Positions 12,655 through 42,565 of a stretch of 64,000 nucleotides of DNA are shown piece by piece. The stretch is taken from positions 2,976,001 to 3,040,000 of the forward strand of contig CM000155.2 of NCBI GenBank assembly GCA_000004695.1. The letters run 5' to 3'. Source of the DNA: Dictyostelium discoideum (taxonomy: Eukaryota). The notes below the pieces were generated by a model. That model saw only the letters and a program-made list of their open reading frames with translations. It did no database searches and was not told where the DNA came from. Within the stretch, counting starts at the first letter, position 1, and every line of letters begins with the position of its first letter. The translations under genes were made by a program, and so were the position numbers.

Positions 12655-13405
12655 ATGTACGGATACGGATATACACCAGCAGTTGTAGCACCAACAGTCA
12701 TGTCATTCTCATTTGTCCCACCTCAAGCATTCCAACAATGTTGGTTTTACTCATTATACACTCAAATTCAACAAGCTCAATTATATGAAATGCAATCTTG
12801 GTTTATGAGAGTTGATGCAAATCGTAGCGGAACAATTAGCAGTGGTGAATTACAATATTTAAATATTGGTGGCACTCCTCTTGGTATTGAAACAGCTGTA
12901 AGTAATAATAATAATAATATATTAAAATAAAAAAGTATAAATTAATTAATAACCAACTTTTTCTTTTCTTTTTTTTTCTTTTTTTTCTTTTTTTTCTTTT
13001 TTTTCTTTTTTTTATAATTTTTATAATTAGACTAAATTAATTAAAGTTTTTGATCATAATAAAAATGGTCAAATTGATTTCTATGAATATGCAGCACTTC
13101 ATCAATTTATCAATAACCTTTACAGATGTTTTGTTGCCAATGATCGTAATTTCAGTGGTACCATTGATGCAAATGAAATTTATAATGCACTCATTACAAG
13201 TGGATTCCAATTACCATTCCCAACTGTTAACTACCTTTTCTTAAAGTTATCCCCAAGTGGTTATGGCCTTTTATTCACTCAATTCTTAAATTTATGTGCA
13301 ACCGTCGCTTTAACTCGTTCATTATTTGAATGGAATGATCCAATGAGAACTGGTGTAGTCCATTTAAATTTAGCTCAACTTTATGATATCATTGCTTTAG
13401 TTTAA
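12655..13405 (+). CDS. penta-EF-hand Ca2+-binding protein, ALG-2/peflin family (2 exons: 12655..12897, 13031..13405)
   Basis: Exon 1 carries the EF-loop [13 protein letters not shown] and ends at a GTAAGT donor (12898). AG at 13029-30 opens exon 2, [62 protein letters not shown]...[16 protein letters not shown]. This aligns along human ALG-2 (FDRENKAGVNFSEFTGVW...[26 protein letters not shown]...). The intron contains a (CTTTTTTT)n repeat. Confidence 0.75.
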
Positions 13406-22069: not shown

Positions 22070-22890
22070 ATGAGAAGACAAACAGGTAGACAATTAGAAA
22101 ATGAATATTTAGATGAACAAGGTAAAGTAAGATTCAAAAAAAAAAAAAAAAAAACAAAAAAAAAAACAAAAAAAAAAAACAAAAAAAAAAAAAAAAAAAA
22201 AAAAATTCCAAAGAAAACCCTTGCTGTAACCTAATTTATTAATATTCATACTTTTCTAACTTTTTTTTTTCAAATAATAGAGCAAAAAGATGTAATAAAT
22301 AATTTATTAACAAATGATAAATCAACAAGTTTATTTTATAGGGTAATTATTATTTTTATTATTTTTATTATTTTTATTATTATTAAATTAGGAAGAAAAT
22401 AATTTTACTAATTTTTTTTTTTTTTTTTAAATTTTATTTTATAACTAATTAATTAAAAAAGAAATGTATTAGTATGGTTGGATTTTTTTGTGGAGTTTTA
22501 AAATTATTATGCGCAATATTACCATTTAATGTATTACCATTTGAACATTTAGCACATAGTACATTGAAGGGATCAGGTGTTTCAAGTTTTTTCATTGCTT
22601 GGTTGGAGTGGATTTCAGCATCAGCTTATATTGCAGGTGGTATTGGAATGTATCCCGATTTTGTTAAAGGTTTTATAAGAAAATGGATTATGTTTGCATG
22701 TATCGGTTTCACATCTTTCACCTCATTTGTTGTCTTAATTTTGAGTGGTAGTATTTTTGCCACCCTTTGGATCACTGGTGTCAATTGTATTTATCTTTTT
22801 GCTTGCCTTTATGTTTTCTCTATAACCTCAAATAGTCAAAGAGAAATTATTAATCTTCAAAAATTCCAATATCCTCATAAAAAAGCCTAA
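22070..22890 (+). CDS. small 4-TM membrane protein, hypothetical (3 exons: 22070..22121, 22281..22342, 22462..22890)
   Basis: Exon 1 is MRRQTGRQLENEYLDEQ with donor G|GTAAAG (phase 1). The 62-nt exon 2 (E)QKDVINNLLTNDKSTSLFYR lies between AATAG| and |GTAATT. Exon 3, KCISMVGFFCGVLKLLC..., has four hydrophobic segments. Only one phase combination avoids stops. Confidence 0.5.
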
Positions 22891-23304
22891 ATAGGAATTA
22901 AAAAAAAATAAAAATAAAAATAAAATAAAAAATAAAATGTTTAAAAAATAGATTTTTTATTAATTTTAATAATTAAAAAAATAAATAAATAAATAATTAA
23001 AAAAAACAAATAAATAAAAAAAAAAAAAAAAAAAAATTGATTGTTTAAAAAACACTTATCTGGAAAAAAAAAAAAAAAAAAAATAATAATAATAAAATAA
23101 ATTTTAAAAAAAAAAATTAAAAACCGACAAAATCAATTAATAATCTATTTTTAAAGCCTTTAGAGATAATTATGGCTTAAAATGTATTATTAAAAAAAAT
23201 TTATTTGAAAAATTTGATTTTTTTTTTTTTTTTTTTTATTTTTTATTTTTTTTTTTTTTGAATTTTTTTTTGAATTTTTTTTTTTTTGAATTTTTTTTTT
23301 TTTT

Positions 23305-23335
<31 letters not shown>

Positions 23336-23935
23336 CTTATCTCCATAGTGCAACATTGTATTTTTATATATAAAAAAAAAAAAAAATTAAAAAAATTAAA
23401 AAAAAGTAATGTAATATCGCAAATTAATACATTTTCATATAATAGAATCAATAAAACTTTTATTGTTTTTATAATTTTATTTTTTTTTTTTTATTTTTTT
23501 TATTTATTTTTTCTCCTATTTCCCACACTAATAAAAGAATAGAATTAAAACATATAAAATATATAAAACAAATAATTTTTAAATTACATAAATAAACATA
23601 ATTATAAATAATTAAGGTATAATTTTTAAAATAAAAAACACAGTTTGATATTTTTTTTTATTTATTTAAATAAAAAAAAAATAAAAAAAAAACAAAATAA
23701 TAATATACATAAAAAAAAAAAAAAGATTCCCACACAGAAAAAAAAAAAAAATATCTTTGTTTTTTTTTTTTTTTTTTTAATTTTTTTTTTTTTTCCAAAT
23801 TTTTTTCCCCCCTAACATTAAAAGTATTAATAATAGTATTAAATAAAATAGAATAGAATAAAGGTGAATTAAAATAAATAACATTAATACATTTCGTCGT
23901 GGGTGTTGTGTGTTTTTTGTTTTGTTTTTTTATTG

Positions 23936-23966
<31 letters not shown>

Positions 23967-24124
23967 TGCTTTTTTTTTAATTTCGATATTTTATTGTCTG
24001 TGGGTGTTATGGTTTTATTTTTTAAAAAAATAAAAAAATAAAATTTTTTATTTTATTTTATTCTATAAACTTTATTTTATCCACACACATTTTATACCTT
24101 TAAACCTCTTATAATTAACTAACA

Positions 24125-24158
<34 letters not shown>

Positions 24159-24313
24159 TTAAAACAATTATAGCTTTTAGGAATAAAGAAAAACAAACAA
24201 TTGTGTATAAATATTTTTTAGTTTTTTTTTTTTTTATTCAACAAATTCTCAACAATCTCTTAATACGAAGATCATATTTAAATTATACAAAAACAATTAC
24301 ATATATATAAAGA

Positions 24314-25296
24314 ATGTCAGCAGCAGAAGTTATTAAATTAGTCGTTATTGGTGATGGTGCTGTAGGGTATGCCATTCAAAATTATTAAACAAAACAAAAA
24401 AACAAAGCAAATGAATATTTTCTAACCAAACTTTTTTTTTTTTTATTAAAAATAGTAAAACTTGTTTATTGATTAGTTATGCAAACAATCGTTTCCCAGA
24501 AGATTATATTCCAACTGTATTCGATAATTATGTTGTAAATCTTACAGCAGGTGATAGAAACATAGAACTCGGACTTTGGGATACTGCAGGTCAAGAAGAG
24601 TACGATAAATTAAGACCATTAAGTTATGCAAATGCAAATGTATTTTTAATTTGCTTCTCAATTACCAATCCAGTTTCATTTGAAAATGTTTACACAAAAG
24701 TATTTATCATCAACAACAACAACAACAACAATAATAACAATAATAATAATAATAACAACAAATATATAGGATTTGGTTTTCGTAGCAGTTAGATAATTTT
24801 GGTTGGTGTTTTCAGGTAGCAGTTTTTAGTTTAGAAATTAAATCAAAAAAAAAAAAAGAAAATGAAAAGAAAATACCACCAAAAAAAAAACAAAAAACTT
24901 CAACCACGATAAACCAATTTCCTACACTTCTTTTTTGATTAAAAGTTGGGTACTAACTTTTTTTTTTTTTTTATTTTTTTTTTTTTATTATTATTTTATT
25001 ATTAAAATTTTTAGTGGTACCCAGAAGTTATGCATTTTTGCCCAGAAGTTCCACAAATTTTAGTTGGTACTAAATTAGATACACGTGACGATAGAGGTGT
25101 TTTAGATAAACTTCAACAAACTGGTCATAAACCAATTACAACCGAACAAGGTAACGATTTAGCCAGAAGAATTAAAGCCATTAAATATATGGAATGTTCT
25201 GCCAAAACCTCACAAAATCTCAAACAAGTCTTTGATGAAGCCATTAAATCTGTTTTGTTTATCAAAAAAAAGAAATCCAAGTGTATTGTTATGTAA
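24314..25296 (+). CDS. racC: Rho-family small GTPase (Rac), 192 aa, C-terminal CAAX box CIVM (3 exons: 24314..24366, 24456..24699, 25015..25296)
   Basis: The protein reads [18 protein letters not shown]|[25 protein letters not shown]...[18 protein letters not shown]...ENVYTK|[26 protein letters not shown]...[34 protein letters not shown]. It has the G1, G3 and G4 boxes (GDGAVGKT, DTAGQE, TKLD). Introns are bounded by GTATGC..AG and GTATTT..AG. I recall the sequence as Dictyostelium RacC, but the symbol is from memory only. Confidence 0.8.
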
Positions 25297-26116
25297 ACCC
25301 CGCTCTTCTTTTTTTTTTTTATCTATTGTTCTAATGTCATCATCTTCTTTTATCTTCAAAATAAAATAATCACCTTTTTTTTTTCCTTTTTTTAATTGGA
25401 AAAAAAAAGAAAAAAAAAAAGGAAATATAAAAAAAAAAAAAAAAAACAAAAAAAAAAATAAAAAATAAAAAACCCAAAATAATTATTTAATAACTAAAAA
25501 AAAAAAAACAAATAAAAAAAAAACCCTATATAATTATTTAATATCTAAAAAAAAAAAAAATTAAGAAAATCCTAAATAATTATTAGAATACTAAAAATAA
25601 AAAAAAAAAAACTTTATAATTATTTCCTAAATATTTTTTTTCTGTTTTTTTCTGTTTTTTTTTTTTTTTAATACCCAACATCCAAATTTTCGTTTTTTGA
25701 TCTTAAAACAGTCTCAAGCTTTGAGAAAAGGCAAATTAGGAAGCCACCATCAAAAAAACCAAAAAAAAACCAAAAAAAGTGCCTTTTTATTTGGTTTTGT
25801 ATTTTTATTTTTCATTTTATTTTTATTTTTTTTTTATTTTTTTTTTATTTTTATTTTTTTTACAAATTTTATTAATAAAATATTTTTTTTATTTATTTTT
25901 ATTTTATTTTTTTTTTTTGTATTTAATTTAATTTTTTTTTTTTTTTTATTACTATTTTTTTTTTTAAATGAAAAATCATTTTTCTTAGATTTATTATTGG
26001 ACATTTTTTTTTTTTTTTTTTTTTATTTTATTTTTTTTCATTTATAAATATTTATATAAATATATATCATATTATCTTGTACCTTTTTTATTTTATTAAA
26101 AAAAAAAAAAAAAAAA

Positions 26117-29542
<3,426 letters not shown>

Positions 29543-29942
29543 TGTTTAAAAAATAACAATAATAATAATAAAAAATAATAATAATAAAAAATAATAATAA
29601 TAATAGTAATAAAATAAATTAAATAAAATTAATCATATCCATAAATTTATTCTTTATTTAATTTTTTCATTTTTTGGGAATATATAATTTTTTTTTTCTT
29701 TTCAAAACAAATACAATTATTTTTATAATAAATCTTTAATAATAAGGAAAATTAAATTTATATTGGTTGTTAAAATGAAATATTATTCATTATTTTGGTT
29801 AACTTGTTTTCAATAATATTAATAAAAAAATATATATAACCACAATAGCCTATTTTTTATATTTTTCTTCATTATCTAGGTATTTGTTCAAACATTAATA
29901 AATTATTGGCATTAATTACAAATCTTGGTATTTAAAAAATTT

Positions 29943-29985
<43 letters not shown>

Positions 29986-30119
29986 ATTATAATAAATAAT
30001 AAATAAAAAAATGGTATAAAAACAAACTTTTTTTTTTTTTTAAAATCATTATCAAATACATTATAAAAATAAATATAAAAGTTATCTTTTTTCAAAATAA
30101 TTTAAAATTGGAATAAAAA

Positions 30120-30433
30120 ATGAACAAGGTATAATAATAATTTGAAAAAAACAAAAAAAATTAATTATTTATTAATTATTAATTTTTTTAATATAATAAA
30201 AGTTATTAAATTTATTAGGATTCTTAGTCGTATTAGTTTTTTGTGTTTTTACTGGTTCAAATGCTGAAGGTTTGGGTTCTTGTTCAAGTTGGCATGTAGC
30301 AAGATCTGGCTATACCTGTTGGGATATGGCATCTACATGTGGTGTTTCACTTCAACAATTCATGGGCACTAATAGCTTGTCCTCATATGATTGTGACTAC
30401 ATCCAAATTGGTAGAAAATATTGTTGTAATTAA
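30120..30433 (+). CDS. small secreted cysteine-rich peptide precursor, paralogue A (79 aa; exons 30120..30128, 30203..30433)
   Basis: A 9-nt first exon ATGAACAAG is followed by GTATAA. A 74-nt intron ends AAAAG|. Exon 2 is LLNLLGFLVVLVFCVFTGSNA | EGLGSCSSWHVARSGYTCWDMASTCGVSLQQFMGTNSLSSYDCDYIQIGRKYCCN. It has a signal peptide and a 58-aa mature region with 6 Cys. Codon usage is GC-richer than the surroundings. Confidence 0.55.
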
Positions 30434-31120
30434 TTTGGTATTTGAAAAAAATAGAAATATAATATTATCATATTATAACTATTATTATTAAATAAATATT
30501 ATTTTTAAGAATTTTTCTATCTATTAATTTTAAAAATTTTAATTTTATTTTTTTTACCCTTTGTTAAATAATATATAATAAATTATGTTTTATATAATTA
30601 GTTGTGAATTTTTTTATATAATTTGAAAAAAAAACTTTAAAGTTTTAAGTGGTTCCTTTTTTTTTTTTTATTAAAATAAAATAATTATTAAACATCTAGT
30701 TGAAAAATAAATGATAGTATTAAAAAGATAAAATTAGAATAAATTAAATTATTTACAAAAATAGTAAATAAAATCTTTATTTATTAGGAAATACCATTTC
30801 AAACAATAGCTACTATTATATTAGTGGTATTAAAATTTGTGGTAATTTTATTTTCCCAAATAACCAAAAAAAAAAAAAAATAATAACCACACCCATAATT
30901 AAATATATATATTTTTTTCTTAACTATCTGGGGATTTTAATTTTCTTTTTTTTTTTATTTGTATTTCAAAACTACCATTTAAAATATAATAAAAAAAAAA
31001 AAAAAAAGAAAAAAAATAGTATAAATAAAAAATTATAAAAAAAAAAAAAAAAATAAATCATTTTCCAAATTAAAATTCAATTTTAACATTTTTAATAAAT
31101 CAATAAAATTCTTTCCAATA

Positions 31121-31427
31121 ATGTGCAAGGTATAGTACTCTTTTAATATTTGTATATTAATATATATTATTAACTATAATTATTTTCCTGAAACAGTTAT
31201 TAAACTTATTAGGATTAGTAGTTGTTTTCCTTTTATGTGTTTTCACTGGTTCAAATGCTGAAGGTATGGGTTCTTGTTCAAGTTGGCATGTAGCAAGATC
31301 TGGTTATACCTGTTGGGATATGGCATCTACATGTGGTGTTTCACTTCAACAATTCATGGCAACAAATGGCTTAAGTTCAAATGACTGTAATTACATCCAA
31401 ATTGGTAGAAAATATTGTTGTAATTAA
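31121..31427 (+). CDS. small secreted cysteine-rich peptide precursor, paralogue B (79 aa; exons 31121..31129, 31197..31427)
   Basis: It has the same architecture as paralogue A, about 1 kb downstream. The protein is ATGTGCAAG|GTATAG...AAACAG|LLNLLGLVVVFLLCVFTGSNAEGMGSCSSWHVARSGYTCWDMASTCGVSLQQFMATNGLSSNDCNYIQIGRKYCCN. The mature peptides differ at only about 6 positions. Confidence 0.55.
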
Positions 31428-31849
31428 ATCAAAGTTTGAAATATTTATCATAAATCAATCATTAATTTATCATAATACCAATTTAAATTTTTCCATAAAC
31501 TGTTTTAAATAAATATTTTTCAAATTTTTTTATCTAATTCCCAATTTTTTTTATTATAGATTAATCTGTTTATTATTTATTTCTTTTAATGGATAGTTTA
31601 TTTATGAATTAATTTTGAAAGTAGGGATATTACTCAATTTTGATCTCAATTATCAAAAAAGAATTATAATTTTAAAATATAGTGTTATAAATTTTATTTT
31701 TATTTTTTTTTTTTTTTTATAAATTCAGTTTTAAAGGAGAATATGTTTGAAAGTAGTAGTGAATATGAATAAAATAAACTTTTTTAAGTTAATTTTCTCA
31801 ATTTTATTATTTCTCTAAGGAAATTGTTTTAGATCTTTTTAATTGCCCA

Positions 31850-32540
31850 AATCTTTTGAGTTTATTTTAAAATTTTTGGCTTCTTTTTTTATTCTTGAAG
31901 GGCTTTTAAGTATCACTTACTAACTTTGAGTGGTTTGATTGGTTTGGTTCGTATGATTCGGGCACGACCCTAGGTGGGTGGCGTTGATGATTGATACTGA
32001 CTTTTTTATTGTATTCTTGTTTGTTCAAACATTCTTAACAAAGAGCGAGCGAATTGGTTTGTCATCCAGAGTTTCTGAGCGGTTTGTCTCTGGTCAATGG
32101 AAACCTAGCTCTTTTCGTTCGCATTATATCAATCACTTGAAAACCACTTGAATTTCTATTGTTGAGCTGAAAGAAACCAATGTACAAATTTATTTATTTT
32201 TTTTATTTCATCTTCGTTTAAACATTCTACATATTAGTTGTATGTTTTTTTAGATAGTGCATATTGGTTTTGGTCTTTATTGTCGAACCTAATCTTTTCC
32301 ACAGTACCAAAGATGATTTTGTCGAGTTAATGATTTTGGTATTTTTCTAAATATACCTCTACCCGTGAAGAAGTAGCCTAGATATCTTACTGGGGTATCG
32401 GATATGGGGATTTTTAAATTATCAATGTTTGGATTACAAATAATTTTTGGAAGTTTTCGTGTATGTATCTGGGTAGAATGTGTTGAAGTGATTAAGTACA
32501 ATATCGATGAGAGATAGAATCAAAGGCTTTTTCCAAATCG
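31850..32540. mobile_element. non-AT-rich transposon-derived fragment 70 bp downstream of tRNA-Asp (possibly a downstream-targeting TRE3-type element or LTR remnant)
   Basis: The composition changes sharply, for example ggtttgattggtttggttcgtatgattcgggcacgaccctaggtgggtggcgttgatg. There is no convincing ORF; 32289..32501(-) has no recognisable domain. Its position matches the known downstream-of-tRNA integration window. Confidence 0.3.
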
Positions 32541-32571
32541 TAAAATTTTGCTTTTTTAATACCTCTATAGG

Positions 32572-32582
32572 AATCGAACACT
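32572..32582 (-). promoter_or_regulatory. ex-B box downstream of tRNA-Asp
   Basis: The minus strand reads GTGTTCGATTCCTATAGAGG about 30 nt 3' of the tRNA. It has the same GTTCGATTC core as the tRNA-Lys ex-B box. Confidence 0.45.
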
Positions 32583-32609
32583 CGATCTATTTTTTGTTTT
32601 TGGTAAAAG

Positions 32610-32681
32610 CTCCCTGTCCGGGAATTGAACCCGGGCCTTTCGCGTGACAGGCGAAAATCCTCACCACTAGACCAACAAGGA
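32610..32681 (-). tRNA. tRNA-Asp (anticodon GUC)
   Basis: The reverse complement is TCCTTGTTGGTCTAGTGGTGAGGATTTTCGCCTGTCACGCGAAAGGCCCGGGTTCAATTCCCGGACAGGGAG, 72 nt. It has an A box (TGGTCTAGTGG), a B box (GGTTCAATTCC), a CCTGTCACG anticodon loop and acceptor pairing with one G-U. It is very close to the universal eukaryotic tRNA-Asp. Confidence 0.9.
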
Positions 32682-32732
32682 TATTATTTGAAATTTTTGT
32701 TATAATGCCAAAAATTATATGCTCTTACAAAA

Positions 32733-33585
32733 AACAAACAACAACAACAATCTCTTTTTTTGATTATTTCATTTTTCATATAAAAAAGACTTAAAAAACA
32801 AATAAATAAATAAATAAACTATTTTAAAAAGCCATCTTTTTACTTTATTGTAATTTATTATTTGTTTCGTTTTGAGAATTTTGCGTAGCAAAATTTTCAA
32901 AAAAAAAGCAAAAAATAATCAGATCGAAAAAAACAAACAACAACAACAATCTCTTTTTTTGATTATTTCATTTTTCATATAAAAAAGACTTAAAAAACAA
33001 ATAAATAAATAAATAAACTATTTTAAAAAGCCATCTTTTTACTTTATTGTAATTTATTATTTGTTTCGTTTTGAGAATTTTGCGTAGCAAAATTTTCAAA
33101 AAAAAAGCAAAAAATAATCAGATCGAAAAAAACAAACAACAACAACAATCTCTTTTTTTGATTATTTCATTTTTCATATAAAAAAGACTTAAAAAACAAA
33201 TAAATAAATAAATAAACTATTTTAAAAAGCCATCTTTTTACTTTATTGTAATTTATTATTTGTTTCGTTTTGAGAATTTTGCGTAGCAAAATTTTCAAAA
33301 AAAAAGCAAAAAATAATCAGATCGAAAAAAACAAACAACAACAACAATCTCTTTTTTTGATTATTTCATTTTTCATATAAAAAAGACTTAAAAAACAAAT
33401 AAATAAATAAATAAACTATTTTAAAAAGCCATCTTTTTACTTTATTGTAATTTATTATTTGTTTCGTTTTGAGAATTTTGCGTAGCAAAATTTTCAAAAA
33501 AAAAGCAAAAAATAATCAGATCGAAAAAAACAAACAACAACAACAATCTCTTTTTTTGATTATTTCATTTTTCATATAAAAAAGA

Positions 33586-33590
<5 letters not shown>
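32733..33590 (+). repeat. tandem ~199-bp repeats (B-module array of the TRE5-A element), about 4.3 copies
   Basis: The string ...ACAAACAACAACAACAATCTCTTTTTTTGATTATTTCATTTTTCATATAAAAAAGACTTAAAAAACAAATAAATAAATAAATAAACTATTTTAAAAAGCCATC...GCAAAAAATAATCAGATCGAAAAAA recurs at 32733, 32932, 33130, 33329 and 33528. Confidence 0.85.
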
Positions 33591-33636
<46 letters not shown>

Positions 33637-33711
33637 GGAACCAAGTTAATTAGAAAATTTCCAGATTTTTAACTTTTTAAAGAAAAATAAAAAAGATAGA
33701 AAGAAAATAAA

Positions 33712-35046
33712 ATGAAAATCACAAACAACACCACAAATATTAAGCAACACAAATGCCTACAAAAAATAAGCGAAATTGTGGATAAAACTCAATTAAAAAA
33801 AAAACAATTCAAATACGTCATAAACATCAATCACGAACCAGACGATAAAATAAAAAAAGATTTAGAAAAAAGTTTGGACAAAAAAGATGTTTTAATCAAA
33901 AGTAATAATACATTCAAAATTCTCACAGACAGTATTAGTACAGTAATCTATTTTGTAAATATGTTTGATGCAGAATTAAAAGGACAATTTATAACCACTA
34001 TAAGACCAAAAAATATGTATACAGATTTTGATTGGTATAAATCACTCACAGAAATAGAATGGGTAATAGAAAATGAAGGATGTAAACTAATTAAATCAGA
34101 AATTAAAGGCGAAACTCTAATTATCAAAACAGTGAAAAGAGTCGTAGAAGAATTTGACACTATCATTGAACTAGACAATCTAACATTAATTGGACACTCC
34201 AACAAAGGATGGAGAGATCAAACCTCATTACCAGAAAATCAAGAAGAAAACAAAAATAAAAAACAATCAGATGAACAACAACCACAATCTACATCAGAAC
34301 AAATACCAAAACAAGGAAAAAGAACAATCATTATCCCACCAATCACATCCTCATCTAATGATAAAACATTTATGGCCCTAGATGATACAGCTCAAAAGGT
34401 AATAGAAGCATCACTAGAAAACGTAGATGAACTAACAAGAATAGAGAATGAGATCAATACACAATCGATAAACAATCAAGAAATTAAAACAAAATCAGAA
34501 AAACCTATCGAACCACCATCTCCATACAATACACCAATAAAACAACACGGCGAAACAAAGGGACTAACAACGGAAGAAAAACTTAGAGAGGCAAATGATA
34601 TCTTCGACTTCACCAGCCCAAACACTGATGCAATAAGAAAAATAGAATTCCCACTTTCAATCCCTTCAAATCAATGGTTCTTCTCCTCTCCAATAAAACA
34701 TATCATGAGTTTCAGCCCAACCTATGGTACACCATCGAAAATTATCGATTCACCAAGTAAATTGTTAAACACACCAAAAAAGAAACAACAAGACAAAACA
34801 AACAAGACCAACAAAACACCAGTCAAACCAAAATTGGGTGAATATGGACAAAAAAGCATAAAAACAAAAATGGATGAAGATATAGACAACTTCAACAAGG
34901 AAATTCTAAAACAAATCAATAAATCAAAAAACCCCACAAACACACAAGACCAACAACACAATGAACAAAGTAAAGATCAGTTAGAAGACAAAATAAACCA
35001 GAAACTTCAAAAGGTAGATAAAAATCTACCCCAAATAAAACTATAA
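33712..35046 (+). CDS. TRE5-A ORF1 protein (444 aa)
   Basis: A long ORF with A-rich sense-strand codon usage, typical of Dictyostelium TRE elements. It lies immediately 3' of the B-module array. Its 5' end is duplicated at 35400..35640. Confidence 0.65.
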   Translation: MKITNNTTNIKQHKCLQKISEIVDKTQLKKKQFKYVININHEPDDKIKKDLEKSLDKKDVLIKSNNTFKILTDSISTVIYFVNMFDAELKGQFITTIRPKNMYTDFDWYKSLTEIEWVIENEGCKLIKSEIKGETLIIKTVKRVVEEFDTIIELDNLTLIGHSNKGWRDQTSLPENQEENKNKKQSDEQQPQSTSEQIPKQGKRTIIIPPITSSSNDKTFMALDDTAQKVIEASLENVDELTRIENEINTQSINNQEIKTKSEKPIEPPSPYNTPIKQHGETKGLTTEEKLREANDIFDFTSPNTDAIRKIEFPLSIPSNQWFFSSPIKHIMSFSPTYGTPSKIIDSPSKLLNTPKKKQQDKTNKTNKTPVKPKLGEYGQKSIKTKMDEDIDNFNKEILKQINKSKNPTNTQDQQHNEQSKDQLEDKINQKLQKVDKNLPQIKL

Positions 35047-35342
35047 AGAAAAACACAATAAGAATAGGTGTTTGGAACGTCCAAGGATCCAACACCATCC
35101 AATCTGCCAGCATAATAAACACCGTTTTAGACAACAACAAGCTGGACGCAGCACTTCTAACTGAAACAAATATAAAAACAAATAAAATTTACTCAATAAA
35201 TCAACAATATAAAAACAAAATAACACACCACGCACCAATTGATAAAACAGGACAAGGGGTGTCACAAATCATCATCAACACCCGCAATAGAACTTCCTAA
35301 ACATCTCAAAAAATACAATAATTCACTCAGTACTTTCTATAA

Positions 35343-35399
<57 letters not shown>

Positions 35400-35403
<4 letters not shown>

Positions 35404-36230
35404 CAGTTAATCAGAAAAATAAAAAAGATAGAAAGAAAATAAAATGAAAATCACAAACAACACCACAAATATTAAGCAACACAAATGCCTACAAAAAATA
35501 AGCGAAATTGTGGATAAAACTCAATTAAAAAAAAAAACAATTCAAATACGTCATAAACATCAATCACGAACCAGACGATAAAATAAAAAAAGATTTAGAA
35601 AAAAGTTTGGACAAAAAAGATGTTTTAATCAAAAAGACCCTGTAAAAAAAAAAAAAAAATAAAATGAGATCTAGCATCTCAAGGAGAAGCAAATAATAAT
35701 TGCGTTATCCAATTCAAAAAAAAAATTATATGCTCTTATAGATGGGTTGCTCATACAGATGGGATAAAGCAAAATCTCCTCGGACATGTATAACCTGACC
35801 AATAAGTATCGCAACTAAAATCTCCGAAATGAGGGATTACAATACTATCATCGCGCGGGGGTTTTATTTATTATATTAATATATTTGTGGAAATCCATTA
35901 AAATATATTTCATATTAAATGTTTTAATCTATTAATAAATCATTAATGTTCAAAATTGGGCTTATTCTTAAATTTAATGGTCAGCATTAAATTGGGAATT
36001 TACTATAGATAAAAACAATTCTTTTTAAATTAGAGGAACTCTATTCTAAATCAATAAGTTTAAAATAGAGAATTCACCATAATATATAAAAACAGATATA
36101 TTTTGGTGTTTAGACTAGAAATTACGATATCAGTTTATTTTTTAGGTTCTCCATCTTATTATCAAATCGGTAATATTTGGATCAAGTCCTTTAATCCTCC
36201 ACCCTTTTTAAATAAAAAAAATAAAAAGTA
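35400..36230 (+). mobile_element. rearranged TRE5-A debris: duplicated ORF1 5' segment (35400..35640, followed by A-run) and a unique A-module-like 5'UTR segment (about 35700..36230)
   Basis: 35400..35640 is near-identical to 33660..33905. At 35717 the string aaaattatatgctctta, which also begins the element at 32712, recurs. It is followed by about 500 bp of non-AT-rich unique sequence (gatgggttgctcatacagatggg...gcgcgggggtt...). Confidence 0.4.
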
Positions 36231-36699
36231 ATACCATTTTCAATATATAATAAAGAGATTTAAATTCTTTTTTTTTTTTATTTTATAAAAGTAATAATAT
36301 TAAATCCTTTTTTTTTTTTTTATTTTATTTTTTATTTTTTTTTTAAACAATTCTTTAAATTTTAAACTTTAACAATTATAATAAAGAATAAAAAAATAAA
36401 AAAATTTTAATTCCAATAAATTATTATGGATCACCATTTTTATTATTAAAACTTTAATTTTTTTTTTTTTTTTTTTTTTTTTTATTCCTTTTTTCTTAAA
36501 AAGGTTAATTTTTTCTTTTGTAGATTCAATTTTTTTTTTTTTTCCACAAATATTATTACCATTTCTATAAAATTATATACCATAAATTATTAATTTGACA
36601 ACCTCTATATAACTATTGAGTTATATTTTTTATTTATTTTTTTTTTTTTATACAGGATTATTTATTTATTATAAATATATTTTCAGAGTTACTCTAAAA

Positions 36700-37130
36700 T
36701 ATTATTTATTTTAGATATTTATGAATTTTAGAAATTTTCATAAATGGACTTTTTCATCCTCCGATTTATTGTTTTACTTTAAATTGGAGGATTAATCTTC
36801 CAATTTAGTTTTAATTGAATTGGAGGATTACTCCTCTTTTTTAACCTTTGGTTAAATTAGAGGAGCATTCTTTTATTTTAACAAAGTTAAATTAGAGGAA
36901 TACCACTTTTTTTTACCTTAGGTTGGATTAAGAGGATTGTTACAATCCTTTTTTTTTCAAACTATTGGTTAAATTAGAGTGAAACCACTCAAAATATTCC
37001 CTAAGGTTTATTAAATATTCCCAAGGTTTATTTTGGGTTCCCTCAAAGAGGGATTTACCTTCAAATTAGATCCTAATTTTGGTAAAAAAAAAGTCCGATA
37101 ATCCTCCCTTTTATTAATAATTTTAAAAAA
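36700..37130. repeat. unclassified dispersed-repeat island with reiterated TTAAATTAGAGGA-like motifs
   Basis: The motif ttaaattggaggattaatc / aattggaggattactcc / taaattagaggagcattc / taaattagaggaataccac / ggattaagaggattgtt / taaattagagtgaaacc recurs at 25-45-bp spacing. Similar motifs occur at 35985-36060. Confidence 0.3.
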
Positions 37131-37334
37131 AAAAAAAAAAATAATAAATAATACATATTTAAATAAATAATAAAAGAAATATTTCATAAAATTAAATAAA
37201 AATATTTACACATAATAAAAAAAAAAAAAAACCGTTGTTCAAATAAGAACATAAAATTATTACATTTTTCTAATTGTTTTTTTTTTTTTTAAAAAGCTTT
37301 TTTTATTTTATAAAATATCTAAAAATGAGTCAAT

Positions 37335-38141
37335 TTAGAATGATTTTAAGAAACCTTTTTGTTGGGCTAATCTGTTGAGAGCAGCATCGGATTGACCATT
37401 GTTACGGAGGAAACCGCAGAAAGCAAAGATGGTTTGTTCACCATTGTAGATACCTTCAGCATTGACGTGACCAATGTTAATTTGGACGGAAGCGTGATCC
37501 TTGGCGGTGATTAAACGGTTGGTGGCAGAGCTAAATAATTTAAATTATAAAATAAAAAAATTAATAATTTATTCTCTTTTTAAACCAATTTTTTTATTTT
37601 TTATTATTTTTATTTGACATAGTAACGATGTGTAATAGTAAAAGTAGTAGTGATAGTTTAATTATTATCAATATTTTTGTGTTGTATTTTTAGTTGAATT
37701 GTTATGAAAAAAAAAAATAAAAAAAATAAAAGAATTTTGTTTGTTTTTTTTTTTTTTTTTTTTTTTTTCTTCTAAACAAATTCTATAAAAAATTATCTAT
37801 AACCTAATTTTATATTTTTGATCAAATTTAAATAATATTCTCTGTTTCTTGTTTTAAATTTTCTTATTTATCATAATTATTATTATTATTATTTTTTTTT
37901 TATTATTTTTTTTTTTTTCTGTCTCTTTTTTTTTTTTTTTTTATTTTATTTTTTTTTTTACGATTTTTTTTTTATTTTTTTTTTTTAATAATAATAATAA
38001 ACCCTGCTTTTGAATCCAATATAACTACCACCATCACTACCATTCTACTGTACTCTTCATTTACTTGTATTTAAATAAATAAATAAATAAAAATACATAC
38101 CACTTACGTGGGGTGTAGAGTTCAACGTTCTTGGAGTCCAT
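37335..38141 (-). CDS. rps21: 40S ribosomal protein S21 (2 exons: 38141..38101, 37530..37335)
   Basis: The protein is [14 protein letters not shown]|[64 protein letters not shown]. It aligns with human RPS21 ([31 protein letters not shown]...[29 protein letters not shown]). The GTATGT donor splits the Cys codon (TG|C). The intron is about 570 nt. Confidence 0.85.
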
Positions 38142-38536
38142 TTTATATGATATTGTTATAACTATGAAAGCAAAAAGAGAAAAAGAAAAATCAACAAAAA
38201 AAAAAAAAAATTTCTGTGAGGGTCGAGAAATTTTTTTTTTTTTTTGCAAAAAAAAAAAAAAATTATAAAAAAATTAAAAAAAATTGTTTTTTTTTTATAA
38301 AAAAAAATAAAACCGAATTTCGAAAATTGATCAAAAATTTTGTGTGTGACCAATCATTATTTTTTTTTATTTCTTTTTTATTTTTTTATTTTTTTTTCAT
38401 TTTTTTTTTAATTATTTAATTTTCTAAATAAATAAATAATTAATAAATAAAAAATATATGAAAATAAATAAATAAAATAAATCATTGATAGATCATTCAA
38501 AAAAAAATGGGCGATATTTAAAAGTGGTCTCGTACC

Positions 38537-38584
<48 letters not shown>

Positions 38585-38874
38585 AAAATAAAATAAAATA
38601 AAATTTTCTAAAAATAAAAAAAAAAAAAAAAAAAAAATAATAAAACAAAAAATTTAAGATTTAATCATTTACAAAAATTTCTTTTTTTTTTTTTTATTAT
38701 TTTTTTATTGATTATATTTTTTATAAACACTCATAAATTTGGCAATAAAAGCTTCTAAATGAAATATTGGCTTTGAACCAATTTGTGATCTGTGTTCCTG
38801 TTTTTTTATTTTTTTTTATTTTTTTAATAAATAAATAAAAAGTTAATAATTAATTATATAATTTTTTTTTTTTT

Positions 38875-39924
38875 TTAAAAAATAATATTTACATAATAAG
38901 ATGCCCAATGAATTATTTCAAATTTCATATTATGATCTAGTTTTTTAAAGATTTCTAATAATAAAGTTTTAAAGATTAATTCTGGAGGAATACAATGACC
39001 TAATAATTCGTAGAGTTTACCACGTACTATTGAAAGTCTTGCAGGTGATTGTTCCTCAAAGCAATCCTTAACGATTTGAGAGATGTAATTTTCCCAATCC
39101 AACAATGGTAATTCCGTAGATTGGAAAGGATATTGTTTTGCTTTCTGAGATTCCAATAACATAAGAGCGTAACGTAAATTGCCACCAGACTGTTTAGCGA
39201 CGTTTACAGCCAATTTCGAGGGCAAATCAAATTTTTCAGCGGTTGCCACTTTGGCAAGCACCTTTTCAATCTCCTCTTGCGAAGGTGCAGGCACCCTGAT
39301 ACCCAAACATCTCGACTTGATAGGGTCAATAACTTTGGCAGTCGAGTCGCAACATAAGATCAAACGACAGAATGTTGCATATTTCTCCATAGTTCTTCTG
39401 AGTGCATGTTGGGCGTCTTTCGATAGTTTGTCAACTTCATTTAAAATCACAATTTTAAAAGCGCCCAATGAGCCACTATCGATTGGTGGTGATTGTGCAA
39501 TCTCTTTAATAATGGTTTGAATTACAACACGATCATATGATCCTGCCTCACCTGGATTAATCTCTATATGATAATGACTACTAATCGTTGTAATCTGTAT
39601 ATTCTTACTACTTGTTGGATGTTTAAATGTTCTATGATCAATCTTTAATTTCAATGCATTTGGTCCATATATCTCTTGTAATACCGCTAAAATCCTTGTT
39701 TTTTTACCTGCTCCACTTGGACCATAAACTAATAAATGTGGAAAATCACCACTTTTAATCTGTAAATAAATAAAAATAAATAAATAAATAAATATATATA
39801 TATTTTTCGTTTTTTTTTTATTATTATTATTATTATTTACCATATTCTTTAAATTTATTGATATATCATTATGATAATCCATCTTATCTAATGATGTTGG
39901 TTTATATTTATCAATCCATAACAT
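38875..39924 (-). CDS. rfc3: replication factor C subunit 3 (RFC 38 kDa / yeast Rfc5 orthologue) (2 exons: 39924..39841, 39759..38875)
   Basis: The protein is MLWIDKYKPTSLDKMDYHNDISINLKNM|IKSGDFPHLLVYGPSGAGKKTRILAVLQEIYG...FKIVILNEVDKLSKDAQHALRRTMEKYATFCRLILCC...SRCL. It is collinear with human RFC3, including the Walker A motif, the SRC motif and YPF. The in-frame intron (GTAAAT...TTACAG, 81 nt) reads through in the ORF track as an Asn/Lys-rich insert. Confidence 0.85.
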   Translation of the reverse strand: MLWIDKYKPTSLDKMDYHNDISINLKNMVNNNNNNKKKTKNIYIFIYLFIFIYLQIKSGDFPHLLVYGPSGAGKKTRILAVLQEIYGPNALKLKIDHRTFKHPTSSKNIQITTISSHYHIEINPGEAGSYDRVVIQTIIKEIAQSPPIDSGSLGAFKIVILNEVDKLSKDAQHALRRTMEKYATFCRLILCCDSTAKVIDPIKSRCLGIRVPAPSQEEIEKVLAKVATAEKFDLPSKLAVNVAKQSGGNLRYALMLLESQKAKQYPFQSTELPLLDWENYISQIVKDCFEEQSPARLSIVRGKLYELLGHCIPPELIFKTLLLEIFKKLDHNMKFEIIHWASYYVNIIF

Positions 39925-39998
39925 TTTTATTTATTATATATATTTGTTTTTATTTTATTTATATATTATGTGTGTTTATGTAAAAATTAAAATGAAAA

Positions 39999-40029
<31 letters not shown>

Positions 40030-40351
40030 ATTTGAATTTAAGAAATTGGCGGGAGTTTCGAAATTTATCTTTTTTTTATTTTTTTATTTTTTTTTTTTTT
40101 TTTTTTTTTTTATTTTTCTTTTCTTTTTATTGATTCCATTATTTAAAGATTTAACTAATTATTTATTTTGATTTTATTTTATTTGTTTTTAGATTATTCT
40201 TTTCGGATCTAAAAAAATAAAAAAAGGTAAATATTCAATAAAAACTAAATTTTCCCAGAAATTTGAAAAAAAAAAACAATTTTCATTTTTTCAAAATTTT
40301 TTTTTTTTTTCTTTTATTGCTTTTTTTTAATTTTATTTTTTAAAATAAAAA

Positions 40352-40384
<33 letters not shown>

Positions 40385-40430
40385 TTCTAACATTCTTTAA
40401 AAATAATAAATAAATTAATAAATAAATAAA

Positions 40431-42565
40431 ATGGAAGAAGAAGAAATAATTGAACCAAAAGATTTTGAAAATGAAGAATCAGAAAATATCCAAATGGATG
40501 AAAATGAAAAACAGATACCAATTCAAACTACAAATGATCCACAAAAGTAATTTATTTAATTTTAATTTTAATTTTAATTTTAATACTAATATCTTAATTT
40601 TTTATATATAGTAAAAATATAATGAGAATTTTAGTTGCAACAGATAATCATTTAGGATATTTAGAAAGAGATCCAATTAGAGGTGATGATTCATTTAATT
40701 CATTTGAGGAGATATTAAAATATGCACATACATTAAAAGTTGATATGGTATTATTGGGTGGTGATTTATTTCATGATAATAAACCATCAAGATCATGTTT
40801 ATATCGTACAATGGAATTATTTAGAAAGTATTGTTTAGGTGATTCACCAGTTAGAATTCAATTTCTATCGGATCAATCTGTTAATTTTTCAAATCAATTT
40901 CATACAGTGAATTATGAAGATCCAAATTTTAATATTTCATTACCAATATTTTCAATCCACGGTAATCACGATGATCCAACTGGTGAGGGTGGTTTGGCAG
41001 CTTTAGATTTATTATCAGTTTCGAATCTAGTCAATTATTTCGGTAAAACTGAAGATATTGATGATATTACAGTCTACCCATTACTACTTGGTAAAGGTGA
41101 GACAAAAATAGCGATCTACGGGTTAGGTAATATTAGAGATGAGCGTTTGCATAGAACTTTTCAAAAGCAATCAGTGAAATTAATGAGACCGGTGGAATCA
41201 AAAGATGAATGGTTCAATATTTTAGTACTTCATCAAAATAGGGTAGCCCACAATCCAAAGAATTATGTTCACGAGAAGATGATAGAAAGTTTCATAGATT
41301 TCGTTCTATGGGGACACGAACATGAATGTTTAGTCAATCCACAGGCATCGTCAGTGGGAGAATTCCATATTTCACAACCTGGTTCTTCAGTAGCTACAGC
41401 TTTATCAGAGGGTGAATCAAAGGATAAATTTGTAGGATTGTTGGAGGTTTATAAAAATCAATTCCGTTTTAAACCATTCCCATTGAACACGGTTAGACCA
41501 TTCATTATGGATCAAATCATACTTGCAAATAGTAACATACATCCAACACAACAGAATGATGTAATTCAATGGATTGAGCAAAAAGTAGAATCAATGATTG
41601 AACAAGCCAAATTAAAATCTCAAGGTAAACCCAACGAATCAATGTTACCATTGATAAGATTAAAAGTTGATTATACTGGTTATAGTACTATCAATCCTCA
41701 AAAGTTTGGTCAAAGATTTCAAGGCCGTGTAGCAAATCCAAATGATGTTTTATTATTCCACAGAAAGAAACCAACCACTTTATCAAGTAAAAAACAAAAG
41801 GATGGTGGTGAATTGGATGTGAATTCAATCAAAGAAAAAGAAGAAGATAAAGTGAAAGTGGCCGATTTCATAAGTGAATTCTTGGGTAATACACCAAATG
41901 ATCGTTTACAAATTCTATCAGAGAATGATCTATTCAATAGTTTACATTCATTCGTTGAAAAGGATGAAACCGATTCAATATTGAAAATGGTTGATCTCTC
42001 TTTAAAATCGACTCAAAAATATTTAAATTCAAAAATCTCTTCAAAAGATGCTTACCCAGATTTCATTGCTAAATATATTGATGATAATTTCCCATTACCA
42101 CATCAAAATGTATCTTCGGTCAATTCAGATTTATTACCAATAAATAATCCAAATGAATTTGAATCAAATTTATTAGATGAAGATTCTCATGGTCATGAAC
42201 ATGGTCATAGTCATAATCATAGTCAAATGATTGATAATGATGATGATGAAAACATTTTAAATCAAAGAACAATTTTTAAATCACCACAATCAAATAAAAC
42301 AGCACCAACAACAACTACTACCACCACTACTACTACATCTTCACAAATTTCAACAAGAAGAAAATCTTCAACTCAATCTTCAACTCAATCTTCACAAACT
42401 TCAATTATAATAGATGATGATGATGATGATGATGAAATTAATGAAGATAATGATGATAATGATAAAGATTTTGAAAGTGATGAAGAGAAAACTCCACCAT
42501 CAAAGAAAAGAGGTAAAGTTAAACAAGTTGGTTCAGTTTCAAAAAGATCAAGATCAAAGAAATAA
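40431..42565 (+). CDS. mre11: double-strand break repair nuclease Mre11 (2 exons: 40431..40546, 40612..42565)
   Basis: Exon 1 is MEEEEIIEPKDFENEESENIQMDENEKQIPIQTTNDPQ, with donor AAAG|GTAATT in phase 2. A 65-nt intron ends TATATAG|, then N-KNIMRILVATDNHLGYLERDPIRGDDSFNSFEEIL...LLGGDLFHDNKPSR...FSIHGNHDDPTG...WGHEHEC follows. These are the Mre11 phosphoesterase motifs I-V. The tail is acidic/Ser-rich. Confidence 0.85.

What the first reader, a model, noticed from the sequence alone, without database searches (positions are those of the whole stretch)
30120..31430. Tandem pair of micro-exon genes encoding near-identical secreted 6-cysteine peptides
Two paralogous 79-codon genes sit 1 kb apart. 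Each has a 9-nt first exon (Met plus 2 codons), a short intron, and a second exon encoding a signal peptide plus a 58-aa mature peptide with 6 Cys. The mature peptide is SCSSWHVARSGYTCWDMASTCGVSLQQFM..DC.YIQIGRKYCCN. The mature regions are about 90% identical, and the substitutions cluster in one 12-aa stretch. The introns and flanks have diverged. This looks like purifying selection or gene conversion on a secreted effector. The ORF track missed both genes. I cannot assign them to a known family. Candidate functions are antimicrobial, intercellular-signal or spore-coat-associated peptides.
Basis: seen in the sequence. Interest (0 to 1): 0.65.

Follow-up and report, generated by a model that had tools for sequence, protein, structure and literature searches.

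The report
Two annotated Dictyostelium LysM mini-protein genes
The two small genes are real, but they are already annotated in the Dictyostelium discoideum AX4 genome as secreted single-LysM (sugar-binding) domain proteins, and their unusual similarity pattern comes from a short gene-conversion event.

Summary
Two 79-codon genes start 1001 bp apart, at 30120-30433 and 31121-31427. Each has a 9-nt first exon, a 74- or 67-nt GT..AG intron, and a second exon encoding a signal peptide plus a domain with six cysteines.

They are not unannotated or family-less. Both 79-aa products are identical to D. discoideum AX4 chromosome 6 proteins XP_628992.1/Q54BN7 and XP_628993.1/Q54BN6, named 'peptidoglycan-binding lysin domain'. 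Both pass the Pfam LysM threshold. An AlphaFold model (pLDDT 86) matches solved LysM domains, best the fern chitinase-A LysM.

They belong to a small dictyostelid family: at least 6 genes in AX4, a 6-gene tandem array in D. firmibasis, and 2 genes in Polysphondylium violaceum. Every full-length member aligned keeps six invariant Cys; the nine whose DNA was examined share the 9-nt first exon, and the others start MNK.

The clustered substitutions (codons 58-68) are mostly explained by a B-to-A gene conversion tract covering roughly codons 20-57 in the AX4 lineage. A second, about 10% diverged assembly reveals it (Fisher p=1.2e-5).

The most likely function is a soluble binder of GlcNAc-containing microbial wall glycans. 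This is inferred, not tested. No paper in the library mentions these genes. Interest is low to moderate.

The parts
30120..30128 (+). Gene A exon 1 (ATG AAC AAG, encoding Met-Asn-Lys)
   Evidence: The product is identical to XP_628992.1/Q54BN7. The start context is AAAAAATG.
30129..30202 (+). Gene A intron, 74 nt, GTATAA...AAAAG, phase 0
   Evidence: In-frame TAA codons lie just upstream of exon 2, so the signal-peptide coding region can only be reached by splicing. The intron position is conserved in 6 D. firmibasis paralogues.
30203..30433 (+). Gene A exon 2. Codons 4-24 (30203-30265) encode the rest of the signal peptide. Codons 25-79 encode the mature peptide. The stop codon is at 30431-30433.
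30299..30418 (+). Gene A LysM domain as matched by Pfam PF01476 (residues 36-75)
   Evidence: 22.1 bits against a cut-off of 20.9. PDB profile hit to the fern chitinase-A LysM. AF2 model and Foldseek search.
30251..30365 (+). Maximum extent of the inferred B-to-A gene conversion tract in the AX4 lineage. The minimum extent is 30270-30340.
   Evidence: at 10 sites in codons 26-49, A of the other assembly differs from AX4-A, AX4-B and the other assembly's B, which all agree. Fisher p=1.2e-5 against the ortholog-pattern sites outside the tract.
30365..30397 (+). Gene A variable patch, codons 58-68 (GTNSLSSYDCD). It covers the end of helix 2 and the helix 2-strand 2 loop.
   Evidence: 12 nt differences; 6 synonymous differences on 6.7 synonymous sites. 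(highest column entropy in the family). Location of the ligand groove from PMC4083421.
31121..31129 (+). Gene B exon 1 (ATG TGC AAG, encoding Met-Cys-Lys)
   Evidence: The product is identical to XP_628993.1/Q54BN6.
31130..31196 (+). Gene B intron, 67 nt, GTATAG...AACAG, phase 0
31197..31427 (+). Gene B exon 2: signal peptide remainder, mature LysM peptide, and stop codon at 31425-31427
31293..31412 (+). Gene B LysM domain (Pfam PF01476, residues 36-75)
   Evidence: 27.6 bits against a cut-off of 20.9
31359..31391 (+). Gene B variable patch, codons 58-68 (ATNGLSSNDCN)

Best explanation
These are two already-annotated Dictyostelium discoideum AX4 chromosome 6 genes (Q54BN7 and Q54BN6, 'peptidoglycan-binding lysin domain').

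Each makes a 79-aa precursor. A cleavable signal peptide, whose first three codons sit on a 9-nt exon, is followed by about 55 aa consisting of one eukaryote-type LysM domain. That domain is probably stapled by three disulfides.

The most likely function is a soluble, non-catalytic mini-lectin, released to the medium or into the endo-lysosomal lumen. It would bind GlcNAc-containing microbial wall glycans: bacterial peptidoglycan and/or fungal chitin. Binding would use the canonical LysM groove formed by the strand 1-helix 1 loop and the helix 2-strand 2 loop. These are the glycans of the prey, pathogens and competitors of a soil phagocyte.

The genes belong to a small dictyostelid family that evolves by tandem duplication. 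In AX4, a short B-to-A gene conversion homogenised roughly codons 20-57 of gene A. The ligand-loop segment (codons 58-68) was left as the main difference between the paralogues.

Shown: the gene models, identity to the annotated proteins, LysM membership by sequence and predicted fold, the family and its conserved Cys pattern, and the conversion tract.

Inferred: secretion, disulfide bonding, the glycan ligand and the biological role.
For: - Exact-sequence look-up places both 79-aa products in AX4 as XP_628992.1 and XP_628993.1, on a 3.60-Mb contig.
- Pfam LysM scores exceed the gathering score for both proteins and for 9 of 12 family members.
- A profile search of PDB sequences gives fern chitinase-A LysM domains as best hits: 5bum at E=1e-4, then 4pxv. 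Four of the six Cys are aligned.
- The AF2 model has pLDDT 86 with beta-alpha-alpha-(alpha)-beta topology.
- All the top Foldseek PDB hits (at least ranks 1-35) are LysM domains or LysM-containing proteins; against 4pxv the TM-score is 0.71 normalised to the query and 0.79 to the target.
- An exhaustive profile search finds 419 relatives. Of the ten checked for source, the six outside the dictyostelids are Cys-containing multi-LysM proteins, two of them from chytrid fungi.
- The N-terminus has the n/h/c layout of a signal peptide with an SNA|E site (sequence).
- No catalytic domain or second hydrophobic segment is present (79 aa in total).
- The family and gene structure are conserved.
- Gene conversion is shown.
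- The variable columns (43, 47-48, 58-69) coincide with the two loops that form the ligand groove in solved LysM complexes (PMC4083421).
Against: - No binding, localisation or expression data exist for these genes in the searchable literature.
- The near-universal G-D-T motif of the strand 1-helix 1 loop is G-Y-T in this family, so ligand binding could be altered or lost.
- A single LysM usually binds weakly (PMC4083421).
- Peptidoglycan and chitin cannot be distinguished as ligands. The closest solved relatives are chitin binders, whereas the database name says peptidoglycan.
- Signal peptide cleavage and disulfide connectivity were not computed. No predictor or model coordinates were available.
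- No transcript evidence could be retrieved.
Confidence: 0.6

Rival explanations
1. The LysM scaffold has been repurposed. Under this reading the peptides act as disulfide-rich secreted signals or direct antimicrobial peptides without glycan binding.
For: - The peptides are small, secreted and Cys-rich, and the family is lineage-specific.
- The conserved Asp of the G-D-T ligand-loop motif is replaced by Tyr in most members (Phe in DDB_G0293854).
Against: - Net charge of the mature peptides is -2 to +2, with A at -1 and B at 0. This is unlike cationic membrane-active peptides.
- The whole LysM core is conserved, including G39, N60 and G73.
- No similarity to any signalling peptide or defensin family was found; the only Pfam hit is LysM.
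Confidence: 0.15
2. They bind a Dictyostelium self-glycan and act in development, for example in the slime sheath, stalk or spore-coat matrix, rather than on microbes.
For: - LysM proteins in other organisms can act on the producer's own wall (established knowledge).
- No expression data exclude this.
Against: - From my own knowledge, not tested here: Dictyostelium walls are cellulose plus a Gal/GalNAc polysaccharide, and no chitin or peptidoglycan is made.
- The proteins show no resemblance to known Cys-rich spore-coat proteins. Pfam finds only LysM.
- Copy number varies between close species: 2 genes at this locus, against 6 in the D. firmibasis array. This turnover is more typical of environment-facing genes.
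Confidence: 0.12
3. The N-terminal hydrophobic segment is an uncleaved signal anchor. The LysM domain would then be displayed on the cell or phagosome membrane as a receptor for bacteria.
For: - The hydrophobic stretch is about 16-18 residues long, which is borderline for a transmembrane helix.
- Sillo et al. 2008 listed a D. discoideum LysM gene, DDB0218607, under 'membrane proteins'. It was 32-fold higher in a wild strain on bacteria (PMC2443395). Whether it is one of the two genes here is not established.
Against: - A canonical small-x-small site (S-N-A) follows the hydrophobic core in most full-length members aligned.
- The cytoplasmic tail would be only 3 residues, with no signalling domain.
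Confidence: 0.1
4. They are not functional genes, that is, decaying duplicates or prediction artefacts.
For: - No transcript evidence could be retrieved here.
- One family member, DDB_G0289783, is truncated.
Against: - The reading frames are intact.
- dN/dS is 0.21 in the mature part.
- Six Cys and the LysM core are invariant across D. discoideum, D. firmibasis and P. violaceum.
- The exon-intron structure is conserved.
- Orthologues of both genes are intact in a roughly 10% diverged assembly.
Confidence: 0.03

Closest known systems
LysM domains of fern and horsetail chitinase-A (Pteris ryukyuensis 4PXV/5YLG; Equisetum arvense 5BUM)
   Same: - These are the best sequence hits (E=1e-4) and fold hits (TM-score 0.69-0.74 normalised to the query, 0.74-0.81 to the target; about 31-33% identity).
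- The domain is about 48 aa with beta-alpha-alpha-beta topology.
- Cys residues before strand 1, at the start of helix 1, before strand 2 and after strand 2 align with C30, C42, C67 and C77.
   Different: - Those domains are modules attached to a chitinase catalytic domain, whereas here the LysM is the whole mature protein.
- The family here has two extra Cys: C49 at the end of helix 1, and C78, which makes a C-terminal CC pair.
- G-D-T/I is replaced by G-Y-T.
- Chitin binding is shown for the fern domain and is untested here.
Fungal secreted LysM effectors, especially the single-LysM Mg1LysM of Zymoseptoria tritici (6Q40) and Ecp6 (4B8V)
   Same: - They are secreted, non-catalytic proteins made only of LysM domains and contain Cys.
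- Both appear among the fold hits (ranks 23 and 29).
- The architecture is analogous: one LysM of roughly 55-80 aa.
   Different: - Fold and sequence similarity is weaker than to the fern domains.
- The fungal effectors protect the producer's own chitin wall and hide chitin from plant immunity. By my knowledge, Dictyostelium has no chitin wall and no plant host, so the biological logic cannot be the same.
Bacterial peptidoglycan-binding LysM modules (E. faecalis AtlA 2MKX, T. thermophilus NlpC/P60 4UZ2, E. coli MltD 1E0G)
   Same: - They share the fold and Pfam family.
- The database name of the two genes ('peptidoglycan-binding lysin domain') derives from this group.
- The ligand groove is formed by the same two loops (PMC4083421).
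   Different: - Bacterial modules lack disulfides.
- They occur as repeats attached to wall hydrolases.
- They keep the G-D-T motif.
Other members of the same dictyostelid family: DDB_G0293854, DDB_G0271110, DDB_G0289783, a chromosome 5 paralogue, D. firmibasis RB653_008944-008949, and P. violaceum CYY_004684 and CYY_008475
   Same: - Proteins are 76-84 aa (one fragment of 59 aa). Of the members listed, 13 of 14 start MNK (DDB_G0289783 starts MNL); gene B in the window starts MCK.
- The 9-nt first exon is shared in the eight gene copies where DNA was examined.
- The pattern C-x11-C-x6-C-x15-18-C-x9-11-CC is invariant in the 12 aligned sequences; the full-length members outside that alignment also show six Cys (by eye).

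   Different: - A and B form their own clade.
- They sit at a separate locus beside rfc and mre11. The D. firmibasis array lies beside the DAP-epimerase, LSM11 and PRMT genes.

Membership tests
LysM domain (Pfam PF01476 / CBM50) | Sequence match to the family profile above the curated threshold | tested here: met
   22.1 bits (A) and 27.6 bits (B) against a gathering score of 20.9, over residues 36-75; 9 of 12 family members match at E<=0.01; the profile hits multi-LysM proteins down to E=5e-23.
LysM domain (Pfam PF01476 / CBM50) | Beta-alpha-alpha-beta fold of about 45-50 residues | tested here: met
   Predicted, not solved. The AF2 model has pLDDT 86, with E7-9, H16-23, H27-34, (H38-42) and E49-51. 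The top-ranked Foldseek PDB hits (at least ranks 1-35) are LysM domains or LysM-containing proteins at probability 0.6-1.0.
LysM domain (Pfam PF01476 / CBM50) | Conserved ligand-loop motif G-D-T at the strand 1-helix 1 junction | tested here: inconclusive
   Gly and Thr/Ser are kept, but Asp is replaced by Tyr (Phe in DDB_G0293854). See the alignment to 5bum and 4pxv and the family alignment. The effect on binding is unknown.
LysM domain (Pfam PF01476 / CBM50) | Binds GlcNAc-containing glycans (peptidoglycan, chitin, lipochitooligosaccharides) | not testable with these tools
   This needs recombinant protein and binding assays.
Eukaryote-type disulfide-containing LysM (plant, algal and fungal) | Cys residues flanking the domain and in the two ligand loops | tested here: met
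   C30, C42, C67 and C77 align with the four Cys of 5bum. 4pxv aligns from residue 36 on, so only C42, C67 and C77 are covered there. The chytrid and metagenomic relatives read show the same four Cys (by eye). Actual disulfide bonding and the partners of the extra C49 and C78 were not determined.
Fungal LysM effectors (Ecp6 / Mg1LysM type) | Secreted protein consisting only of LysM domain(s), with no catalytic domain | tested here: met
   The precursor is 79 aa: a signal-peptide-like N-terminus plus one LysM. Secretion itself is inferred.
Fungal LysM effectors (Ecp6 / Mg1LysM type) | Protects the producer's chitin wall or sequesters chitin fragments from host immune receptors | not tested
By established knowledge Dictyostelium lacks a chitin wall, so membership in the functional class is doubtful. 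Only the architecture is analogous.
Cationic cysteine-rich antimicrobial peptides (defensin-like) | Net positive charge, or a match to a defensin/AMP family | tested here: not met
   Net charge is -1 (A) and 0 (B), and -2 to +2 across the family. The only Pfam hit is LysM.

The most novel reading that the evidence does not exclude
The family may be a dictyostelid invention: single-LysM, triple-disulfide mini-lectins carrying an aromatic (Tyr) substitution in the ligand loop. They would serve a professional phagocyte as soluble recognition or opsonising factors for bacterial peptidoglycan or fungal chitin. Paralogues would differ in glycan specificity through the helix 2-strand 2 loop. That loop stays diverged even where gene conversion homogenises the rest of the gene. 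This would be an amoebozoan counterpart of animal PGRPs and plant LysM receptors.
Probability: 0.2. Interest if true: 0.5.

Novelty: already known. Interest (0 to 1): 0.2.

Why it matters
As a genome feature this is ordinary. Both genes are in the reference annotation with exactly these models and already carry a LysM name.

What this analysis adds:
- The family is delimited: six invariant Cys, G-Y-T in place of G-D-T, a conserved 9-nt first exon, and at least 6 genes in AX4.
- The 'clustered substitutions' have a concrete explanation in a short B-to-A gene conversion tract.
- The part that remains different between the paralogues is the canonical ligand loop.

If the proteins prove to be microbial-glycan binders, they would be simple, tractable candidates for how a bacterivorous amoeba recognises peptidoglycan or chitin. 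No function has been reported for them in the literature I could search.

Tried and rejected
Literature searches that found nothing on these genes:
- The UniProt accessions.
- Guessed neighbouring DDB_G identifiers. The only hit was dstC, whose primers are not in the window.
- The annotation phrases together with DDB_G.
- LysM together with DDB_G.
- The three known paralogue identifiers.
- The supplements of the Lamrabet 2020 RNA-seq paper.

The one literature lead:
- A LysM gene, DDB0218607, is 32-fold higher in wild strain V12M2 on bacteria (PMC2443395).
- I could not map it to either gene, so it is a lead only.

Transcript and splice evidence:
- Exact-product look-ups that might have returned spliced RNA-seq contigs found nothing for A, B or DDB_G0293854.

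Synteny:
- I expected the D. firmibasis six-gene array to be the orthologous locus.
- tblastx and the gene lists show it lies beside the DAP-epimerase, LSM11 and PRMT genes, not beside rfc and mre11. It is a second locus.

Neighbouring ORFs:
- ORFs in the window give no functional link. They are RFC subunit, Mre11, a PP-loop ATPase, and several with no Pfam hit.

Explanations rejected for the A/B pattern:
- Purifying selection alone. Synonymous sites are almost identical in codons 28-57 (dS 0.055) but saturated in codons 58-68.

- Disulfide connectivity could not be derived because model coordinates are not exposed.
- No signal-peptide predictor was available.
Full report
**1. What is in the sequence**

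The window has 22% G+C.

- Gene A starts with ATG AAC AAG at 30120-30128, followed by GT. An AG at 30201-30202 precedes an open frame running to TAA at 30431-30433.
- Gene B has the same layout: ATG TGC AAG at 31121-31129, an intron at 31130-31196, and exon 2 at 31197-31427.
- Splicing gives two 79-aa products:
  - A: MNKLLNLLGFLVVLVFCVFTGSNAEGLGSCSSWHVARSGYTCWDMASTCGVSLQQFMGTNSLSSYDCDYIQIGRKYCCN
  - B: MCKLLNLLGLVVVFLLCVFTGSNAEGMGSCSSWHVARSGYTCWDMASTCGVSLQQFMATNGLSSNDCNYIQIGRKYCCN

The splice is needed to reach the hydrophobic leader. In gene A, in-frame TAA codons lie immediately upstream of exon 2. Exon 2 has no in-frame ATG before the hydrophobic leader in either gene: none before residue 45 in A, and none before residue 27 in B. 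The conserved in-frame hydrophobic segment can therefore only be translated through the 9-nt exon.

- The end coordinate is 31427, not 31430.
- The probable cleavage site is SNA|EG, which gives about 55 aa rather than 58. This rests on the -3/-1 rule only.
- Six Cys lie in the mature part, at C30, C42, C49, C67, C77 and C78.

**2. The genes are already annotated and belong to a known family**

An exact-sequence look-up finds both products in D. discoideum AX4 on a 3,602,379-bp contig.
- A is EAL60660.1 / XP_628992.1 / Q54BN7.
- B is EAL60661.1 / XP_628993.1 / Q54BN6.
- Both are named 'peptidoglycan-binding lysin domain'.

Neighbouring genes in the window are an RFC subunit (38875-39924, minus strand), Mre11 (40622-42565) and a PP-loop protein.

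The evidence for LysM membership is as follows.
- Both proteins pass the Pfam LysM gathering score: 22.1 and 27.6 bits against 20.9, over residues 36-75.
- A four-sequence profile hits the fern and horsetail chitinase-A LysM domains in the PDB (5bum at E=1e-4; 4pxv). Four of the six Cys are aligned.
- AlphaFold2 gives a confident beta-alpha-alpha-(alpha)-beta model with pLDDT 86.
- All the top Foldseek PDB hits (at least ranks 1-35) are LysM domains or LysM-containing proteins. Against 4pxv the TM-score is 0.71 normalised to the query and 0.79 to the target.
- An exhaustive profile search of 1.8 billion representatives finds 419 relatives. Of the ten checked for source, the six outside the dictyostelids are multi-LysM, Cys-containing proteins. 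Two are from chytrid fungi (Phlyctochytrium, Blyttiomyces). Three of the metagenomic ones are labelled 'LysM repeat protein' by their sources.

The statement 'cannot assign to a known family' is therefore superseded.

**3. The family**

A profile search with source names and locus inspection define a small dictyostelid family.

- AX4 has at least six members: A, B, DDB_G0293854 (84 aa, chromosome 6), a 79-aa paralogue on the 5.1-Mb chromosome, DDB_G0271110, and a truncated 59-aa DDB_G0289783.
- D. firmibasis has six genes in tandem, RB653_008944-008949 (L001 8349-13286).
- Polysphondylium violaceum has two.
- All six D. firmibasis genes have the same 9-nt first exon (ATG AAC AAA/G) and a 60-79-nt intron at the same phase-0 position. 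In the absence of transcripts, this is comparative support for the micro-exon.
- In a 12-sequence alignment, C30, C42, C49, C67, C77, C78, G28, G39, M45, F56, N60, G73 and Y76 are invariant.
- The usual LysM G-D-T motif reads G-Y-T.
- Mature peptides have a net charge of -2 to +2, which argues against a cationic antimicrobial-peptide mechanism.
- The D. firmibasis array, and a four-copy array in assembly GCA_054859355.1 (L002), lie beside the DAP-epimerase, LSM11 and PRMT genes. That is a different locus from the window.

**4. Why the substitutions cluster**

The pattern between A and B in AX4 is as follows.

| Codons | Difference between A and B |
|---|---|
| 28-57 | 1 synonymous change (dS 0.055) |
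| 58-68 | 12 nucleotide changes: 6 synonymous on 6.7 synonymous sites, and 6 non-synonymous |
| 69-79 | none |

None of 20000 random placements was as clustered. Flanks are at chance similarity.

Purifying selection cannot erase synonymous differences in one segment only.

Assembly GCA_054859385.1 (L003) is labelled D. discoideum. It is collinear with window 22206-41771 at 88-92% nucleotide identity and carries orthologues of both genes. Four-sequence site patterns show the following.
- At codons 6, 10, 11, 15 and 58-68, the A copies group together against the B copies. This is the ortholog pattern (14 sites).
- At 10 sites in codons 26-49, the other assembly's A stands alone, while AX4-A is identical to both B copies.
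- The contrast gives Fisher p=1.2e-5.
- Several of the states unique to the other assembly's A, such as TAT (Tyr43) and ACT41, are shared with D. firmibasis copies. They are therefore probably ancestral.

The simplest reading is a B-to-A gene conversion in the AX4 lineage. It spans at least 30270-30340 and at most 30251-30365.

The 12-aa 'hot' stretch is thus mainly what the tract did not overwrite. That stretch is nevertheless also the most variable part of the domain across the whole family (columns 58-69). It maps to the end of helix 2 and the helix 2-strand 2 loop.

**5. How it most likely works**

In solved LysM-ligand complexes, the glycan lies in a shallow groove. The groove is formed by the strand 1-helix 1 loop and the helix 2-strand 2 loop, and it is shared by peptidoglycan, chitin and Nod-factor binders (Mesnage et al. 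2014, PMC4083421).

The proteins here consist of a secretory leader and one such domain, with no catalytic or anchoring part. I therefore commit to the following. They are soluble mini-lectins for GlcNAc-containing microbial wall glycans, released outside the cell or into the endocytic lumen of a bacterivorous amoeba. Family members differ mainly in the groove loops.

- Shown: the family, the fold (predicted), the architecture and the pattern of variation.
- Inferred: secretion, three disulfides, the ligand and the role.
- The choice between peptidoglycan and chitin is open. The nearest solved relatives bind chitin. The database name says peptidoglycan.
- The Asp-to-Tyr change in the ligand loop and the weak affinity typical of single LysM modules are real caveats.

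The rivals are a repurposed scaffold acting as signal or toxin, a binder of a self-glycan in development, a membrane-anchored receptor, and a non-functional gene. They are listed with their tests in the rival explanations.

**6. Literature**

No paper in the library mentions the UniProt accessions, the paralogue identifiers, or the annotation phrases together with a DDB_G identifier.

The only Dictyostelium LysM remark found is in Sillo et al. 2008 (PMC2443395). A LysM gene, DDB0218607, is 32-fold higher in the wild strain V12M2 than in AX2 on bacteria. I could not establish whether it is one of these genes.

**7. Verdict**

It is wrong that the genes lack a family or an annotation.
- Novelty: already known, as annotated LysM-domain genes. 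Their function is uncharacterised.
- Interest is low to moderate. It rests on the clean conversion tract and on a possible role of a dictyostelid-specific LysM mini-lectin family in microbe recognition.

Noticed in passing
L003 8001-9331 (GCA_054859385.1) and L002 8001-9327 (GCA_054859355.1): In two newer 'D. discoideum' assemblies, the automatic annotation fuses two adjacent LysM mini-genes into one product: KAM9953985.1 (161 aa) and KAM9974652.1 (140 aa). The fusion reads through intergenic DNA and drops the first gene's C-terminus. These are mis-models, not two-domain proteins.
   Followed up: partly
L001 8349-13286 (D. firmibasis CM069767.1): Six tandem LysM mini-genes (RB653_008944-008949) lie beside the DAP-epimerase, LSM11, DUF1242 and PRMT genes. 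A matching four-copy array is present in L002. This is a second family locus, not syntenic with the window. In AX4 the corresponding paralogues appear on contigs of three different chromosome sizes.
   Followed up: partly
L002 12760-13072: The last LysM copy of this array is split in tblastn. Its N-terminal half (12760-12852) and C-terminal half (12980-13072) are separated by about 130 nt containing stops. It may be a pseudogene or have an extra intron.
   Followed up: no
window 31680-35859: About 4.2 kb downstream of gene B, including a 444-aa ORF (33712-35046, no Pfam hit, Lys/Asn/Gln-rich), has no blastn counterpart in the otherwise collinear L003. Only about 1.7 kb lies between the flanking matches there. 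This is an indel or a fast-diverging segment between the two assemblies.
   Followed up: no
L001 17962-18999: A 345-aa D. firmibasis gene downstream of the LysM array carries a weak precomputed Pfam hit to T6SS_HCP (PF05638). This is unusual for a eukaryote and was not examined.
   Followed up: no
P0169 (DDB_G0289783, AX4): This 59-aa family member ends after the helix 2 region and lacks the last three Cys. It is probably a truncated pseudogene or an incomplete gene model.
   Followed up: no
window 26117-29542, plus strand: A run of same-strand ORFs without Pfam hits lies immediately upstream of gene A. It corresponds to a single 1007-aa called gene in L003 (3951-7468). It is likely one multi-exon gene of unknown function.
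   Followed up: no
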